A DNA stretch of 14,697 bases from positions 1 to 14,697 of the forward strand of contig CAZECW010000051.1 in the NCBI GenBank assembly GCA_964510585.1. The letters run 5' to 3'. The notes beneath the pieces are model-generated. The model had not been told where the DNA came from, did no database searches, and saw only the letters and a list, made by a program, of their open reading frames with translations. The DNA is from an uncultured archaeon. Lineage in GTDB: Archaea > Asgardarchaeota > Jordiarchaeia > Jordiarchaeales > Jordiarchaeaceae. The position numbers and the translations under genes were made by a program. This document shows positions 2,119-5,331 of this stretch, one piece after another (within the stretch, counting starts at the first letter, position 1; every line of letters begins with the position of its first letter).

Positions 2119-3390
2119 TTAATCCTCGTTCTTCTCTTGGGTCTCAGATTTAATTGCCTTTCTCTTGGCAAAAACTACTATGTAAAGCTCTTTGGCCTCG
2201 AATAAAACCTTTTGCCCCTCCCGAGTCTGTTTTAAGTACCCCATCTTCGCTAACTTATTAAGGTACCTTGAAACATTTCCCTGGTCAATATCGAGAGATT
2301 CAGCCAACTGACTGGCAAAAACGGGGCCCCCATTGAACTTTTCACAGATTTTCAAGAAAATTTCGAGCTCTCTTGAAGTTAACTCGTCCTTCATTCTTTT
2401 AAGAATACTTGTACTAAGCTTTCCCCTAGCTAGACGAATACCAGTATCAAGGTCGTTGAGGTCAACCTTATGGCTACCCTCTCTCTTTAGAGCCGCCTCA
2501 AGTGTACTTCTCAAAATAACTAGTAAATAGCGAGGATTATGAAAACTTACTTCATTGGCCTTCTCAATAATTTCCCTTGAAAATGGAAAAAGAGGATCAG
2601 GAGCATTCCCCTCTCTGTATAGGTCCAGTCTCTTTCTAACCAGCTCTACCGCCGCATCATTATCTAATTCTTCGAACTCTATCTCTCCCATAATCCTAGA
2701 GATTACCGCTGGATGAACATCCTTAACCATCTGCCACGATTTAGGACTACTGCAAATAACTGTCATGTGTTTACTTAGACCATGAACCCTAGAAAGATAC
2801 TCTCTGGTAAGTGTGAACGCCTCTCTGATTTCCCTCTCGTTTCCCCCAGAAGCTAGCTCTTCAAATTCGTCTATTATAAAGCAGGTGGTATAATTGTTCT
2901 TGCTTAATATGGAAAAAACACTCGCTAAATCTCTTCCTGCCTTGTGGGAATCCAACTCCAAATTTTTAATAACTAAATTTTTATAATATTCATAAATTTC
3001 AAAAATAAAATCTTTATCTTCGGCGGGAAGCTCCAAAGACAGAGCCTCGGGGCAAACTGCCTCAAACAGAGCCCTTGCATATCTAGCAGGATCCCCACTG
3101 GGAACCTTGCAAAAGAAAACCATGCCGTTATGTCTCTTGAATGTGTCAGATATAGCAATGGCCCTAACGCTTTTTCCTGTTCCGTAGTCACCAACTAAAC
3201 TTAGAGTTGCTCCGCCTCCGCTGAGGACAATATCTATGTTTGTAGCTATTGATTCGTCTTCTGCCGTAAATACCAGTGTTTTAAGTATTTCCTCTTCAGT
3301 CATTGCTTCCGCAGAAGTCTTAACAAAGGGATTTCCCCTCAAATTAAACTGTTTGTATTTATCCTTTTTTATGAGTATATCATAGCTCAA
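2119..3390 (-). CDS. AAA+/P-loop ATPase with C-terminal winged-helix (MarR/ArsR-like) DNA-binding domain; Cdc6/Orc1-like architecture, exact family unassigned
   Basis: Walker A GDYGTGKS; Walker B FIIDEFEE; likely Arg finger in AVISRI; lid region NPRYLL; C-terminal ASQLAESLDIDQGNVSRYLNKLAKMGYL helix-turn-helix followed by a wing. TTG start with upstream AGGGGA. Confidence 0.8.
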   Translation of the reverse strand: MSYDILIKKDKYKQFNLRGNPFVKTSAEAMTEEEILKTLVFTAEDESIATNIDIVLSGGGATLSLVGDYGTGKSVRAIAISDTFKRHNGMVFFCKVPSGDPARYARALFEAVCPEALSLELPAEDKDFIFEIYEYYKNLVIKNLELDSHKAGRDLASVFSILSKNNYTTCFIIDEFEELASGGNEREIREAFTLTREYLSRVHGLSKHMTVICSSPKSWQMVKDVHPAVISRIMGEIEFEELDNDAAVELVRKRLDLYREGNAPDPLFPFSREIIEKANEVSFHNPRYLLVILRSTLEAALKREGSHKVDLNDLDTGIRLARGKLSTSILKRMKDELTSRELEIFLKICEKFNGGPVFASQLAESLDIDQGNVSRYLNKLAKMGYLKQTREGQKVLFEAKELYIVVFAKRKAIKSETQEKNED

Positions 3391-3440
3391 GATCTTTCCC
3401 CTGTTTTTTATTTAAATATATTATACGAAAGCCTTATTAA

Positions 3441-3527
3441 TGTAACTAGTGTAGATATATGTTAAGTATGTAAATAATGTAAATGTATGTAAAATTGTAT
3501 ATTGGAACGTTACATAGACTACATACA
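3441..3527. repeat. Periodic short-repeat array (TGTA/ATGTAA units about every 9-10 bp, then inverted TACA units) in a divergent promoter region
   Basis: TGTA at 3441, 3450, (TGTT 3460), 3469, 3478, 3488 and 3496, plus one off-period copy at 3484; inverted TACA at 3511, 3520 and 3524. Confidence 0.5.
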
Positions 3528-3551
3528 AACAAGAGGGAAAGGCGACAGAAA

Positions 3552-3701
3552 ATGGACAAAACGACCATAAAAATCATCCTCAACCAGTTAAAAGACGTCT
3601 ACGATAACCTAACAGAAAAATATGGAGAAGACATAAGAAAATACAGATACACACTAGCCCACACCATAGCAGACATAAGAACTGACGAAATAGCCGCATA
3701 A
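3552..3701 (+). CDS. Small hypothetical protein (49 aa, predicted helical)
   Basis: ATG at 3552 preceded by purine-rich GAGGGAAAGG; protein MDKTTIKIILNQLKDVYDNLTEKYGEDIRKYRYTLAHTIADIRTDEIAA. The longer 3483 start runs through the repeat array. Confidence 0.5.
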   Translation: MDKTTIKIILNQLKDVYDNLTEKYGEDIRKYRYTLAHTIADIRTDEIAA

Positions 3702-3751
3702 GTAATTAAATTAACGCATAAAATGTACTTACAGCTAGGGGATAGAATAGA

Positions 3752-3803
3752 TCCCAAGCACGCCGAGTAACTCCCAAATATTCATTTTGTACCTCCCAAG
3801 CAC
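3752..3803. repeat. Three TCCCAA direct repeats (two extended to TCCCAAGCAC) at 20-22 bp spacing
   Basis: TCCCAAGCAC at 3752 and 3794; TCCCAA at 3772. Confidence 0.4.
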
Positions 3804-4138
3804 TAGTAGTCGGGCACTACATTTGTAACTACAAAGGGGAAAGCGAAGCTTAATATTTAGATAGCGTAAAGAATTCACAGGAAATCGCATAATCTAAGTA
3901 TAAAAATAGTTAAGAGCTTAAAAAGTGGAAAACTTCAAACTAAGTCACATTTTTCAAAAATCAAAAACTTGGAACCGTGAATCCGTAAACACTAGAAACT
4001 CTTACAAAATGTGTAGCTTGCCAAAAGAAAGAAGATATAAGCGAGAATGATACCAATTTTATAATTCTAAATAAAAAATGAGCATAGTCCGACTCATAAT
4101 TTAACACTTAAAGAAGAATAAAAACTTCAAATTATAGT

Positions 4139-4156
4139 AAAAAAATAAAAAAGGGG
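4139..4156 (-). terminator. Archaeal oligo-T terminator downstream of the spliced fbp stop codon
   Basis: Minus strand reads CCCCTTTTTTATTTTTTT, beginning 7 nt after the TAG at 4164-4166. Confidence 0.5.
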
Positions 4157-4163
4157 TTCCAGA

Positions 4164-5331
4164 CTAATCTTCTTTAACGAATCTATCCGCCAATTTTTTC
4201 AGGACGCCGGGGAGGGTATTCTACTGCGAGAGGGCTACCTCAATTACAAAGAGTATTTATATAAATAATTGAAAAGAGAATATCGCAAGTGTATTCCATC
4301 TCCTCGGGTCCTAGCCTGTGAGGCATGAAGGGACCGTGTCTGCGCATGTATTCTGCTATTTCATTAGCTTTTTGTCTTGCTAAGTCAAATGCTGGGTCGT
4401 CGAACAAGTCTACGGGTCCAACTAGATGACCGTCAGTAACATTGAAGCCTAATGCGACAATTCTTGGGGGGCCATCGAACCTAGTGCAAACAGCATTCTT
4501 TACACTAACGGGCATAAGAGGCCCCGTGTGGCTGCCCCTCATCCAACCTGCTACTAGGTGGGGGAATGCGAAGGGTTCTAAGACTTCTCCGGTAGCGGGT
4601 AGTCCGTGTTGAGAGCGTACCAAGGCGCAGGGGTCGTCTTTTCCTACGTATTTACCTGCTATTAGGCTGAGCCGCGTCGTAGAAACTGCTGCGCATGGTA
4701 ATCCGTCTTTTCGCCATACTTTTCTAATTACATATCTCCCCGTTGTCCCAATTAACGCTAGAGCGTCATACATTTCCTCAGGACAGTTTAAGCGGACGCC
4801 TTTATTTTCCACAACATCGTAGACATCCAAGATAAATCCTTGGTGTAGTGAGGGGTCAATTATTAGTCCTGCTGTGTTGAATGGGTCTACGAAAATTTTG
4901 AAGAGGGGGTAATTAAATGCTCCCGGCTCAGTTTTATCAGCCATAAAAGCTATTAGTGGATCGCTCCCTCGTTCATCGAATTCTAGTTCTGCTACTCCGG
5001 GGCCCATTCCTTTGACATTTCCACTGAATGTGTCTTTGAGTAAATCTTGTCCTGCTCCGTATAGCTTTAATTTTTTCGAAATTTCGGTTGCCTTAGTAAA
5101 GGTGTCCCATGCCAACTTATGCACTTTTTCGTTATTTTCGCCCCTTCTGTGTGTCATAATTAGTTCTAGGTCGTCGCCTGCGTGAGTTACGTGAAAATCA
5201 ATTATTATTCCGTCCTTCTGTCCTTTTTCTAACGAGCTTTTGGCAGCTTCTATGCAGTCTGGATGCACAGTTGTATGACCAGCTATAGAACCTATATCTG
5301 CTTTTATTAAGGAGACTGTTATTTTAGCCAT
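4164..5331 (-). CDS. fbp: Bifunctional fructose-1,6-bisphosphate aldolase/phosphatase (FBPase class V), split into two exons: 5331-4289 and 4218-4164 (365 aa when joined)
   Basis: Family motifs KADIG, HAGDDLELIMTH, LYGAGQDLL, DKTEPGAFN, DPFNTAGL, YVGKDDP, GWMRGSH and RRHGPFMPHRL. The ORF-track protein ends in a non-family tail (CDILFSIIYINTLCN), whereas 4217-4164 encodes TLPGVLKKLADRFVKED*, the expected continuation after EMEYT. GGGGGAG SD upstream. Confidence 0.95.
4219..4288 (-). other. Putative 70-nt archaeal BHB-type mRNA intron in fbp
   Basis: Intron helix UGCGA(4287-4283)/UCGCA(4229-4225); 3-nt bulge AC^U; central helix AUAC/GUAG (3 Watson-Crick pairs plus one A-G); second bulge AA^U; imperfect exon helix. 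Cutting after the second nt of each bulge gives GAA TAC AC|T ACC CTC CCC = EYTTLP in frame. Confidence 0.8.

What the first reader, a model, noticed from the sequence alone, without database searches (positions are those of the whole stretch)
4164..4310. Candidate BHB mRNA intron in the gluconeogenic FBP aldolase/phosphatase gene
Seen in sequence: the fbp frame runs normally to ...PEEMEYT, diverges into an AT-rich stretch with an in-frame TGA (4240-4242), and the missing family C-terminus TLPGVLKKLADRFVKED* resumes 70 nt later in a different frame, followed by an oligo-T tract. The junctions fold as follows: UGCGA/UCGCA intron helix; bulge AC^U (4290-4288); central helix AUAC/GUAG with one A-G mismatch; bulge AA^U (4220-4218); exon helix CCG-a-GGAG-au-GG pairing with CC-CUCC-c-CGG. 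Established: archaeal EndA cuts after the second nt of each 3-nt bulge, RtcB ligates the exons, and the well-known archaeal mRNA example is crenarchaeal cbf5. Cutting by that rule removes 4219-4288 and gives exactly E-Y-T-T-L-P. Inference: this is an endonuclease-spliced mRNA intron in a central carbon metabolism gene, which I do not know to have been described. It would make gluconeogenesis depend on the tRNA-splicing machinery.
Basis: partly seen in the sequence, partly recalled or inferred. Interest (0 to 1): 0.93.

Follow-up and report, generated by a model that had tools for sequence, protein, structure and literature searches.

The report
tRNA-type intron splitting Asgard fbp
The only gene for the gluconeogenic enzyme FBP aldolase/phosphatase in this Asgard archaeon is interrupted near its end by a 70-base intron of the kind normally found in archaeal tRNAs; comparison with relatives strongly implies that it is spliced, although no RNA data cover the junction, and such introns were so far documented inside only one archaeal protein-coding gene (cbf5).

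Summary
On the minus strand, fbp (PF01950) runs from 5331 to 4289. A 70-nt insert (4288-4219) with an in-frame TGA follows. The missing family C-terminus TLPGVLKKLADRFVKED* (4218-4164) then resumes in another frame, followed by an oligo-T tract.

The flanks form a relaxed bulge-helix-bulge (BHB) motif. Cutting after the second nucleotide of each bulge gives exactly E-Y-T-T-L-P.

The organism is an Asgard archaeon (Jordiarchaeia/Freyarchaeia) from a hot spring.

Evidence for a real intron:
- fbp is single-copy in this genome.
- The insert sits at the same site in all six congeners and in one metagenome variant (70, 73 and 81 nt).
- Its interior has diverged but its ends are invariant.
- It was not found in the sister family, in the other Asgard fbp genes matched, or in 156 further archaeal loci.
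- Exon 2 varies mostly at third codon positions of the spliced frame (15 of 22 sites, p=0.0013).
- The genome encodes a split alpha/beta EndA and RtcB.
- I verified BHB introns in hypD, ppsA, rtcB and cbf5 of the same genome.
- A second Asgard genus has its own canonical BHB intron five codons upstream in fbp.

Splicing itself is not shown, because the RNA contigs did not cover the junction. The scan had already found this intron in a congener. I class it as a new member of a known kind.

The parts
4289..5331 (-). fbp exon 1: ATG 5331-5329 through the first two bases of the Thr348 codon (347 codons + 2 nt)
   Evidence: ORF list. PF01950 4.8e-178, profile positions 1-348 of 361. NF041126 FBP_aldo_phos 1-348 of 356. 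PDB 3R1M residues 1-349, E 2.4e-157. Substitutions between congeners fall mostly at third codon positions, e.g. 31/14/146.
4219..4288 (-). 70-nt BHB intron (by sequence alone the boundaries could equally be 4218-4287; the bulge rule picks 4219-4288)
   Evidence: Same-site inserts of 70, 70, 70, 70, 73, 73 and 81 nt in seven independent assemblies. Absent in the sister family and in 156 other archaeal loci. The interior diverges about as fast as synonymous sites. It is unique in the genome.
4288..4290 (-). 5' splice-site bulge A-C^U (predicted cut after C4289)
   Evidence: Read directly. The third bulge base is U or A among relatives, as expected for an unpaired first intron base.
4291..4294 (-). 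Central helix, 5' strand AUAC, pairing with GUAG 4224-4221 (3 pairs plus A.G)
   Evidence: Read directly. Invariant in 7 sequences. Pair probability alone is only about 0.06. The BHB conformer lies 1.3 kcal/mol above the MFE.
4221..4224 (-). Central helix, 3' strand GUAG
   Evidence: As above.
4283..4287 (-). Intron helix h', 5' strand UGCGA
   Evidence: Pair probabilities 0.67-1.0. The fifth pair changes A-U to U-A in metagenome variant L124 and is C.A in G002/G005.
4225..4229 (-). Intron helix h', 3' strand UCGCA
   Evidence: As above.
4218..4220 (-). 3' splice-site bulge A-A^U (predicted cut after A4219; U4218 completes the Thr codon)
   Evidence: Read directly. The third base is U, or C in G005, giving ACU or ACC, both Thr.
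4296..4313 (-). Exon-exon helix, exon 1 strand (UAGGACCCG-a-GGAG-au-GG)
   Evidence: 15 pairs, 98% of cells paired in 7 sequences; three pairs change G-C to G-U. Pair probabilities about 0.9.
4200..4216 (-). Exon-exon helix, exon 2 strand (CC-CUCC-c-CGG-c-GUCCUG)
   Evidence: As above.
4240..4242 (-). In-frame TGA inside the intron; it would end translation of unspliced RNA after a 15-residue foreign tail
   Evidence: A stop lies at the equivalent place (45 or 48 nt into the intron) in all variants.
4164..4218 (-). fbp exon 2: last base of the Thr348 codon, then TLPGVLKKLADRFVKED and TAG (4166-4164)
   Evidence: Spliced translation. Homologs continue EYT-TLPxVLxKL without a gap. 22 variable sites split 5/2/15 by codon position of the spliced frame, p=0.0013, and the stop position is kept in all seven.
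4139..4152 (-). Oligo-T tract (T6 A T7) after the exon 2 stop, an archaeal-terminator-like signal
   Evidence: Read directly. T-rich tracts follow the exon 2 stop in all congeners. Its function as a terminator is inferred.

Best explanation
This is a 70-nt archaeal bulge-helix-bulge intron in the coding region of the single fbp gene (class V FBP aldolase/phosphatase) of a Jordiarchaeia/Freyarchaeia Asgard archaeon.

Proposed mechanism:
1. The gene is transcribed from 5331 through exon 2 to the oligo-T tract near 4150 (inferred).
2. In the pre-mRNA, the end of exon 1 pairs with the start of exon 2 in a 15-bp interrupted helix. The intron ends pair as UGCGA/UCGCA. Between these two helices a short central helix (3 pairs plus A.G) presents two 3-nt bulges. 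The sequence permits this fold, but it is not the MFE.
3. The splicing endonuclease, here a split alpha plus beta-like EndA, cuts after C4289 and after A4219 (inferred from the known rule).
4. RtcB joins the exons as ...UAC AC|U ACC... and probably circularises the intron (inferred).
5. The mature mRNA encodes a 365-residue enzyme with the family C-terminus. Ribosomes that enter unspliced RNA stop at the intronic UGA.

The intron was gained on the stem of this genus, after it split from the sister family, in a lineage already known for extreme tRNA-intron load.
For: 1. Exact anatomy as described.
2. The canonical cut rule gives E-Y-T-T-L-P with no gap or extra residue relative to homologs.
3. 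There is one fbp copy in a 96%-complete genome.
4. The insert is at the same site in all 6 species of the genus and in one more metagenome variant. Lengths are 70, 73 and 81 nt. The interior is 71-80% identical and diverges like synonymous sites. The ends UGCG...CGCAGUAGAA are invariant.
5. It was not found in 5 of 5 genomes of the sister family, in the other Asgard genomes whose fbp matched to the end in one piece, or in 156 further archaeal loci.
6. Exon 2 is under purifying selection in the spliced frame: 15 of 22 variable sites are at third positions (p=0.0013) and the stop codon position is conserved.
7. The 81-nt variant is a multiple of 3 yet carries in-frame stops, so removal rather than frameshifting is needed.
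8. EndA alpha and a beta-like subunit lie at two loci, and RtcB is present. Hetero-oligomeric EndA is the type reported to accept relaxed motifs, including in cbf5 mRNA (PMC2738675, PMC5829648).
9. The same genome has canonical BHB introns that restore conserved motifs in hypD, ppsA, rtcB and cbf5.
10. Genus g17 carries an independent, canonical BHB intron five codons upstream in fbp: GUCC/GGAC helix, 3-nt bulges, a 10-11 bp intron helix kept through G-U changes, lengths 34, 37 and 49 nt.
11. This lineage has 92-95% intron-bearing tRNA genes (PMC11291895; bioRxiv 10.64898/2026.10.13.758758).
12. Independent DNA assemblies carry the intron, so it is not an assembly artefact (run X7 record 22).
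Against: - No RNA evidence. Contigs of the one clear RNA run cover exon 1 of a roughly 96% relative but not 4188-4328.
- The BHB is relaxed: 3 of 4 central pairs, with A.G and A.A mismatches around the 3' bulge.
- Thermodynamic folding prefers another register for the central part.
- Covariation support is thin, because the sequences are close. There is one double change and the shuffle controls are not significant.
- Whether this organism's EndA accepts this motif is untested.
Confidence: 0.85

Rival explanations
1. The insert is never removed. The functional product is the 363-residue protein ending in the intron-encoded tail (CDILFSIIYINTLCN), and the downstream TLPGVLKKL... segment is an untranslated relic or an RNA structure.
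For: The ORF 5331-4240 is intact and is what gene callers see. A stop lies at the same distance into the insert in all variants, and the read-through tails are all hydrophobic and of 15-16 residues.
Against: Exon 2 shows a codon-position substitution pattern in the spliced frame and a conserved stop position (5/2/15, p=0.0013). The read-through part does not: variable sites split 6/6/10 (p=0.16), and its divergence of 0.28-0.33 is about the same as at synonymous sites of exon 1, 0.32-0.45. All uninterrupted homologs keep the TLPxVLxKL tail, which is part of the Pfam and NCBIfam models.
Confidence: 0.06
2. Both forms are made. Regulated or incomplete splicing yields a full-length enzyme and a tail-swapped isoform, so the intron acts as a switch on gluconeogenesis.
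For: Transcription and translation are coupled in archaea (established knowledge), so some unspliced RNA is likely to be translated up to the conserved intronic stop. rtcB itself carries an intron in this genome, which would allow feedback.
Against: There is no sign of selection on the retained-intron peptide. There are no expression data. Nothing links splicing efficiency to carbon status.
Confidence: 0.06
3. Ribosomes hop over the insert (translational bypassing, as in phage T4 gene 60) rather than the RNA being spliced.
For: The insert is short, structured and begins just after a Thr codon, with another Thr codon (ACC/ACA) just after it.
Against: Take-off and landing codons differ in most variants: ACU against ACC in G000, and ACA against ACC in G005. 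A hop onto the landing Thr codon would give EYT-LP, one Thr short of every homolog. The flanks instead fit BHB geometry. The same genome and a second genus have canonical BHB inserts in coding genes, and the host has EndA and RtcB.
Confidence: 0.01
4. The locus is a decaying pseudogene or an assembly artefact.
For: The frame is disrupted as assembled.
Against: The same structure occurs in seven independent assemblies, including a closed 3.58-Mb chromosome, and in contigs of other DNA runs. Exon 1 and exon 2 are both under purifying selection. No second fbp copy exists.
Confidence: 0.02

Closest known systems
cbf5 pre-mRNA intron of Crenarchaeota (Aeropyrum, Sulfolobales, Desulfurococcales; Watanabe 2002; Yokobori 2009, PMC2738675)
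   Same: A BHB-type intron inside the coding region of a protein gene. The cleavage motif is often relaxed. The host has a hetero-oligomeric EndA. The size is in the tRNA-intron range. The intron is gained and lost along a phylogeny.
   Different: The gene is different (central carbon metabolism rather than RNA modification), and so is the phylum (Asgard). Here it is one of several mRNA introns in the same genome. I also found one in this genome's own cbf5, inside the GTLD|PKVTG motif. Splicing of the crenarchaeal cbf5 intron was shown experimentally. This one is only inferred.
Non-canonical and multiple tRNA introns of Freyarchaeia/Jordiarchaeia and Atabeyarchaeia (PMC11291895; bioRxiv 10.64898/2026.10.13.758758)
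   Same: Same lineage, same presumed enzymes (EndA, RtcB), the same kind of motif, and repeated independent gains.
   Different: Those introns are in tRNA genes. Neither paper mentions introns in mRNAs. The fbp intron shares no sequence with any other place in the genome.
BHB intron in the 5' UTR of HVO_1309 mRNA, Haloferax volcanii (Schwarz 2020, PMC7714728)
   Same: An mRNA substrate of the archaeal splicing endonuclease.
   Different: That intron lies in the untranslated leader, so it does not interrupt the reading frame. It was validated in vivo and in vitro.
IRE1/RtcB unconventional splicing of HAC1/XBP1 mRNA in eukaryotes (reviewed in PMC13149111)
   Same: Protein-only, spliceosome-independent removal of a short frame-changing intron from an mRNA. 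Cleavage occurs at structured sites, ligation is RtcB-type (in metazoa), and the protein's C-terminus changes.
   Different: The endonuclease (IRE1) and the stem-loop motif are different, and the process is regulated by stress. No regulation is shown here. This is an analogy of mechanism, not membership.

Membership tests
Archaeal BHB intron (EndA-cleaved, RtcB-ligated) | Strict hBHBh' motif: two 3-nt bulges on opposite strands separated by exactly 4 Watson-Crick/GU pairs and flanked by two helices | tested here: not met
   The central helix has 3 pairs plus A4294.G4221. The first position of the exon helix is A4295.A4217. The strict form is met by the g17 fbp intron and by the hypD, ppsA and cbf5 introns of this genome.
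Archaeal BHB intron (EndA-cleaved, RtcB-ligated) | Relaxed motif accepted by hetero-oligomeric EndA: at least one well-formed bulge with the central helix and an adjacent helix (HBh'), and the second cut site at the symmetric distance | tested here: met
   The 5' site has the central helix, the ACU bulge and a 5-bp intron helix. The 3' site AAU lies at the symmetric position. The conformer is 1.3 kcal/mol above the MFE. That such motifs are cut is taken from PMC2738675 and PMC5829648, not tested here.
Archaeal BHB intron (EndA-cleaved, RtcB-ligated) | Cutting after the second nucleotide of each bulge yields the functional, family-conform product | tested here: met
   Removing 4219-4288 gives ...EYT-TLPGVLKKLADRFVKED*, colinear with all uninterrupted homologs.
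Archaeal BHB intron (EndA-cleaved, RtcB-ligated) | The host encodes the splicing endonuclease and the RtcB ligase | tested here: met
   Two PF01974 genes match the catalytic half and the structural half of two-repeat EndA respectively. RtcB scores 1.1e-173.
Archaeal BHB intron (EndA-cleaved, RtcB-ligated) | Precise presence/absence at one site among orthologs, with a fast-evolving interior and conserved ends | tested here: met
Archaeal BHB intron (EndA-cleaved, RtcB-ligated) | Spliced junction and excised (often circular) intron present in RNA | tested here: inconclusive
   Contigs of the one RNA run cover 4344-5176 of a close relative but not the intron or junction. The other 'metatranscriptomic' runs look like DNA and carry the unspliced form.
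Archaeal BHB intron (EndA-cleaved, RtcB-ligated) | Cleavage at the two bulges by the cognate EndA in vitro | not testable with these tools
   A bench experiment.
Class V fructose-1,6-bisphosphate aldolase/phosphatase (host gene) | Full-length match to PF01950 / NF041126 above the curated cut-off | tested here: met
   592 bits against a cut-off of 25. 588.5 bits against a cut-off of 520. 61-78% identity to uninterrupted Asgard homologs outside the genus. PDB 3R1M E 2.4e-157. The unspliced ORF lacks the last 8-13 profile positions, and exon 2 supplies them by alignment to homologs.
Programmed translational bypass (T4 gene 60 type) | Matched take-off and landing codons flanking the gap, and a product colinear with homologs | tested here: not met
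   ACU against ACC (G000) and ACA against ACC (G005). A hop would drop one Thr relative to all homologs.

The most novel reading that the evidence does not exclude
Jordiarchaeia/Freyarchaeia may run a routine, genome-wide layer of protein-only mRNA splicing. It would reach central metabolism (fbp, ppsA), the splicing ligase itself (rtcB) and cbf5. In that case expression of these genes, including gluconeogenic flux through fbp, would be gated by EndA/RtcB activity, with rtcB's own intron closing a feedback loop. Intron retention would give a tail-swapped FBPA/P. That would be a prokaryotic precedent, in the closest relatives of eukaryotes, for split protein genes and for splicing-dependent gene control.
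Probability: 0.12. Interest if true: 0.9.

Novelty: new member of a known kind. Interest (0 to 1): 0.7.

Why it matters
For more than twenty years, cbf5 of Crenarchaeota has been the only documented archaeal protein-coding sequence interrupted by a tRNA-type intron. A 5'-UTR case in Haloferax was added in 2020.

Here the same mechanism is strongly implied for a core gluconeogenic enzyme, in Asgard archaea, the closest known relatives of eukaryotes. The context adds weight:
- the genome's tRNA genes are saturated with introns;
- at least four other protein genes in it, including the RNA ligase needed for splicing, carry BHB introns;
- fbp itself acquired different BHB introns independently in two genera.

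Practical consequence: gene callers truncate or split these genes, so metabolic reconstructions of these MAGs can miss or mis-model them.

Conceptual consequence: intron spread from tRNAs into mRNAs can happen repeatedly once a permissive endonuclease and a high intron load coexist. That makes this lineage a natural system for studying how split protein genes arise without a spliceosome.

Tried and rejected
1. RNA evidence. Two run searches and one laying of contigs.
   - RNA run X20 holds contigs of a roughly 96% relative over 4344-4503, 4534-5008 and 5002-5176 only.
   - Nothing covers the intron or the junction, so this says nothing about splicing.
   - X7 and X11 are labelled metatranscriptomic but look like DNA, and they carry the unspliced form.

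2. Ab initio genome-wide scan for BHB geometry plus ORF joining.
   - The first script timed out.
   - Later versions gave about 850 'passes' whether the 3' cut was placed correctly or displaced by 1-2 nt.
   - The 'wrong pairing rule' control was biased by purine-rich coding sequence.
   - The scan therefore has no power against the background of adjacent genes, and I make no count of introns per genome.

3. Retained-intron isoform under selection. The read-through tails look alike (C[AV]SF..L[VI]Y..F..N*), but variable sites split 6/6/10 and divergence equals synonymous-site divergence. Not supported.

4. Length constraint. Intron lengths of 70, 73, 34, 37 and 49 nt are all 1 mod 3, which suggested a constraint. 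The 81-nt variant breaks the pattern.

5. Mobile or repeated intron. blastn-short of the intron against the genome finds only itself.

6. Embedded known RNA. Rfam finds nothing in the window. No tRNA is present. No C or D boxes are seen by eye.

7. Covariation proof of the BHB. Only one double change, and the shuffle controls are not significant.

8. Role of the C-terminal tail in FBPA/P catalysis. The paper search found nothing usable, so this was not pursued.

9. Other split matches in Asgard fbp (G047, G308, G347, G042). These are contig ends. G337 has overlapping pieces that suggest a frameshift, not an intron.
Full report
**Observation**

On the minus strand an ORF starts at ATG 5331 and matches class V fructose-1,6-bisphosphate aldolase/phosphatase:
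- PF01950, 4.8e-178;
- NF041126, 588 bits;
- PDB 3R1M, E 2.4e-157.

The match stops at profile position 348 of 361, right after ...PEEMEYT (ACT = 4290-4288). The frame then runs through 15 unrelated codons to TGA 4242-4240. Seventy bases after the break, in another frame, lies T-ACC-CTC-CCC..., which reads TLPGVLKKLADRFVKED and TAG (4218-4164). T6-A-T7 follows. Every uninterrupted homolog continues EYT-TLPxVLxKL at exactly this point.

**Structure**

- The intron ends pair as UGCGA (4287-4283) with UCGCA (4229-4225).
- The end of exon 1 pairs with the start of exon 2 over 15 interrupted pairs (4313-4296 with 4216-4200).
- Between them lie U4293-A4222, A4292-U4223 and C4291-G4224, plus the A4294.G4221 mismatch.
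- Two 3-nt bulges remain: ACU (4290-4288) and AAU (4220-4218).

This is BHB geometry, but in a relaxed form. One central pair is a mismatch, and an A.A mismatch follows the 3' bulge. Folding programs form the two outer helices with probability 0.67-1.0, but they prefer another register for the central part (p about 0.06). The BHB conformer costs 1.3 kcal/mol more than the MFE. Cutting after the second base of each bulge removes 4219-4288 and joins TAC AC|T ACC. The 1098-nt mature CDS encodes 365 residues.

**Organism and context**

Record titles of near-identical loci name Candidatus Jordarchaeia/Freyarchaeota MAGs from hot springs, and the closed genome SRVP19_Freyarchaeia-1. Published work reports that 92-95% of tRNA genes in this group carry introns, often several and at non-canonical positions (PMC11291895). 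It also reports about 2.4 intervening sequences per tRNA gene in Freyrarchaeaceae (bioRxiv 10.64898/2026.10.13.758758). Neither paper mentions mRNA introns. ARAGORN recognises only 9 tRNA genes in this 3.78-Mb, 96%-complete genome, which fits heavy interruption.

**Comparative evidence**

The genome has one fbp copy. All six species-level genomes of the genus carry an insert at the same site. A further metagenome contig at 92% protein identity carries one too.

| Feature | Result |
|---|---|
| Insert lengths | 70 (four genomes), 73 (two), 81 (one) |
| Interior identity | 71-80% |
| Interior divergence | 0.28-0.33 |
| Third-position divergence in exon 1 | 0.32-0.45 |
| Ends UGCG...CGCAGUAGAA and both bulges | invariant apart from the third bulge bases |

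- The fifth intron-helix pair is A-U in four genomes, U-A in the metagenome variant and C.A in two. This is the only double change.
- The 81-nt version is a multiple of three yet contains in-frame stops, so it must be removed rather than frameshifted over.
- Exon 2 has 22 variable sites, distributed 5/2/15 over the codon positions of the spliced frame (binomial p = 0.0013).
- Its stop codon sits at the same place in all seven sequences. Exon 1 shows the same third-position pattern, e.g. 31/14/146.

The insert is absent in:
- all five genomes of the sister family;
- the other Asgard genomes of the 162 (of 400 searched) that have fbp, wherever the match reaches the end of the query in one piece;
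- 156 further archaeal loci from genome and metagenome collections.

Parsimony places a single gain on the stem of this genus.

**Machinery**

Two separate genes carry the EndA catalytic-fold domain.
- One (192 aa) aligns to the C-terminal, catalytic repeat of two-repeat EndA, and by eye keeps Tyr/His/Lys.
- The other (198 aa) aligns to the N-terminal, structural repeat and weakly to 'subunit beta' models.

This is the hetero-oligomeric arrangement. The literature links that arrangement to cleavage of relaxed motifs, including the cbf5 mRNA intron (PMC2738675; PMC5829648). RtcB is present.

**The same thing elsewhere in this genome**

I used earlier scan notes as leads and checked each case myself.

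| Gene | Place in G000 | Length | Motif restored | BHB features |
|---|---|---|---|---|
| hypD | C97:2595-2622 | 28 nt | ICGT-HEQT | CGGG/CCCG helix, bulges ACA and AAA |
| ppsA | C56:9205-9233 | 29 nt | AED-LPGASFAGQQETY | GAGG/CCUC helix |
| rtcB | C58:3762-3791 | 30 nt, holds the 'in-frame TGA' | LPD-AHQGYGFPIGG | CCCG/CGGG helix, bulges ACA and AAG |
| cbf5 | C18:27718-27688, minus strand | 31 nt, canonical | splits the catalytic GTLD-PKVTG motif | - |

The rtcB and cbf5 cases are my own finds. The fbp intron is therefore one member of a set. It is unusual in that set for its length (70 against 28-31 nt) and for its relaxed motif.

**Independent introns in fbp of another genus**

Three genomes of genus g17 (another Asgard family, unnamed by the tools) break fbp five codons upstream (RLGP-D|EMEYT).
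- The inserts are 34, 49 and 37 nt long (L019:2540-2573, L020:2570-2618, L118 minus 1502-1466).
- They form a strict BHB: a GUCC/GGAC central helix, bulges AGA and UCA or AUA, and a 10-11 bp intron helix kept through A-to-G changes that give G-U pairs.
- The MFE fold is the BHB itself.
- Cutting by the rule gives CCA G|AC GAA ATG, which reads P-D-E-M.
- One of these genomes has a further 30-nt in-frame BHB insert in YVGK|DDP (L020:2205-2234) that its congener lacks.

Repeated gain in the same gene is strong support that these inserts are tolerated because they are removed.

**What is not shown**

No RNA data cover the junction, so splicing, circularisation and the exact cut sites are inferred. 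The requirement for the 17-residue tail is inferred from its conservation. My attempts at an unbiased genome-wide count failed for lack of specificity.

**Rivals**

- A never-spliced, tail-swapped protein is contradicted by selection on exon 2 and near-neutral evolution of the read-through part.
- Ribosomal hopping does not fit the codons or the product.
- A pseudogene or assembly artefact is contradicted by seven independent assemblies and by purifying selection.
- A mixed, regulated outcome remains possible but has no support yet.

**Novelty**

In the searched literature, BHB introns in mRNAs are limited to crenarchaeal cbf5 (in the CDS) and Haloferax HVO_1309 (in the 5' UTR). No paper found describes them in Asgard archaea or in fbp. 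This scan had already reported the same 70-nt fbp intron in a congener (e1-2566913), the g17 introns (e1-5395425, e1-5395418) and several mini-introns in this genome. I class it as a new member of a known kind. Confidence in the intron reading is 0.85 and interest is 0.7.

Noticed in passing
G000 contig C58:3762-3791 (+), inside rtcB (C58:3702-5036; locus L114): The RNA ligase gene rtcB carries a 30-nt insert holding an in-frame TGA, between LPD and AHQGYGFPIGG. It is flanked by a CCCG/CGGG helix and 3-nt bulges. The ligase needed for BHB splicing would therefore itself need splicing, which is a possible feedback loop. The intron stem next to the bulges is weak (2 pairs, then an inner GAG/CUC).
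   Followed up: partly
G000 contig C18:27688-27718 (-), inside cbf5 (locus L204): This Asgard genome's own cbf5 has a canonical 31-nt BHB intron: CACU/AGUG helix, bulges AGA and AAA, and a 7-bp stem GCUUCCU/AGGAGGC. It splits the catalytic GTLD|PKVTG motif. cbf5 is the one gene known to carry such an intron in Crenarchaeota. I did not compare whether the site is the same.
   Followed up: partly
L019:2540-2573, L020:2570-2618, L118:1466-1502 (minus): A second, independent and strictly canonical BHB intron (34, 49 and 37 nt) lies in fbp of another Asgard genus (g17), five codons upstream of the site studied here.
   Followed up: yes
L020:2205-2234: A third fbp intron: a 30-nt in-frame, stop-free BHB insert in YVGK|DDP (GGGC/GCCU helix, AAA bulges, 8-bp stem). 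It is present in one g17 genome and absent in its congener L019. It looks like a recent gain, and read-through alone would not reveal it.
   Followed up: partly
G000 C97:2595-2622 (hypD) and C56:9205-9233 (ppsA): 28-nt and 29-nt canonical BHB introns restore ICGT-HEQT in hypD and AED-LPGASFAGQQETY in ppsA. ppsA is a second gluconeogenesis-related gene with an intron.
   Followed up: yes
whole genome G000: ARAGORN calls only 9 tRNA genes in a 3.78-Mb, 96%-complete genome. That is consistent with tRNA genes too interrupted for standard finders, as published for this family.
   Followed up: no
window 4240-4242 and the equivalent places in relatives: An in-frame stop lies 45-48 nt into the fbp intron in every variant, even where the surrounding sequence has diverged. 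The hypD, ppsA, rtcB and cbf5 introns also hold in-frame stops. This may serve to halt ribosomes on unspliced RNA before they unwind the 3' half of the motif. That is speculative, and the g17 fbp introns lack such stops.
   Followed up: partly
window 4289 (run X2, record 10): A DNA contig from the same kind of hot spring matches fbp at about 86% and departs from the window exactly at the exon 1/intron boundary, continuing as EYT-TLQQILAKL. An intron-less relative therefore lives alongside.
   Followed up: no
G337:C13:51079-52126 (loci L116, L122): In one Asgard genome of family f7, fbp matches in two overlapping pieces (query 2-75 and 72-348) with a TGA inside. This looks like a frameshift or sequencing error rather than an intron.
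   Followed up: no
window 2119-3390 (-): The downstream neighbour is a 423-aa ORF with a GTGKS P-loop-like motif. About 770 bases of AT-rich sequence without a long ORF separate it from fbp (3391-4163). Not examined.
   Followed up: no
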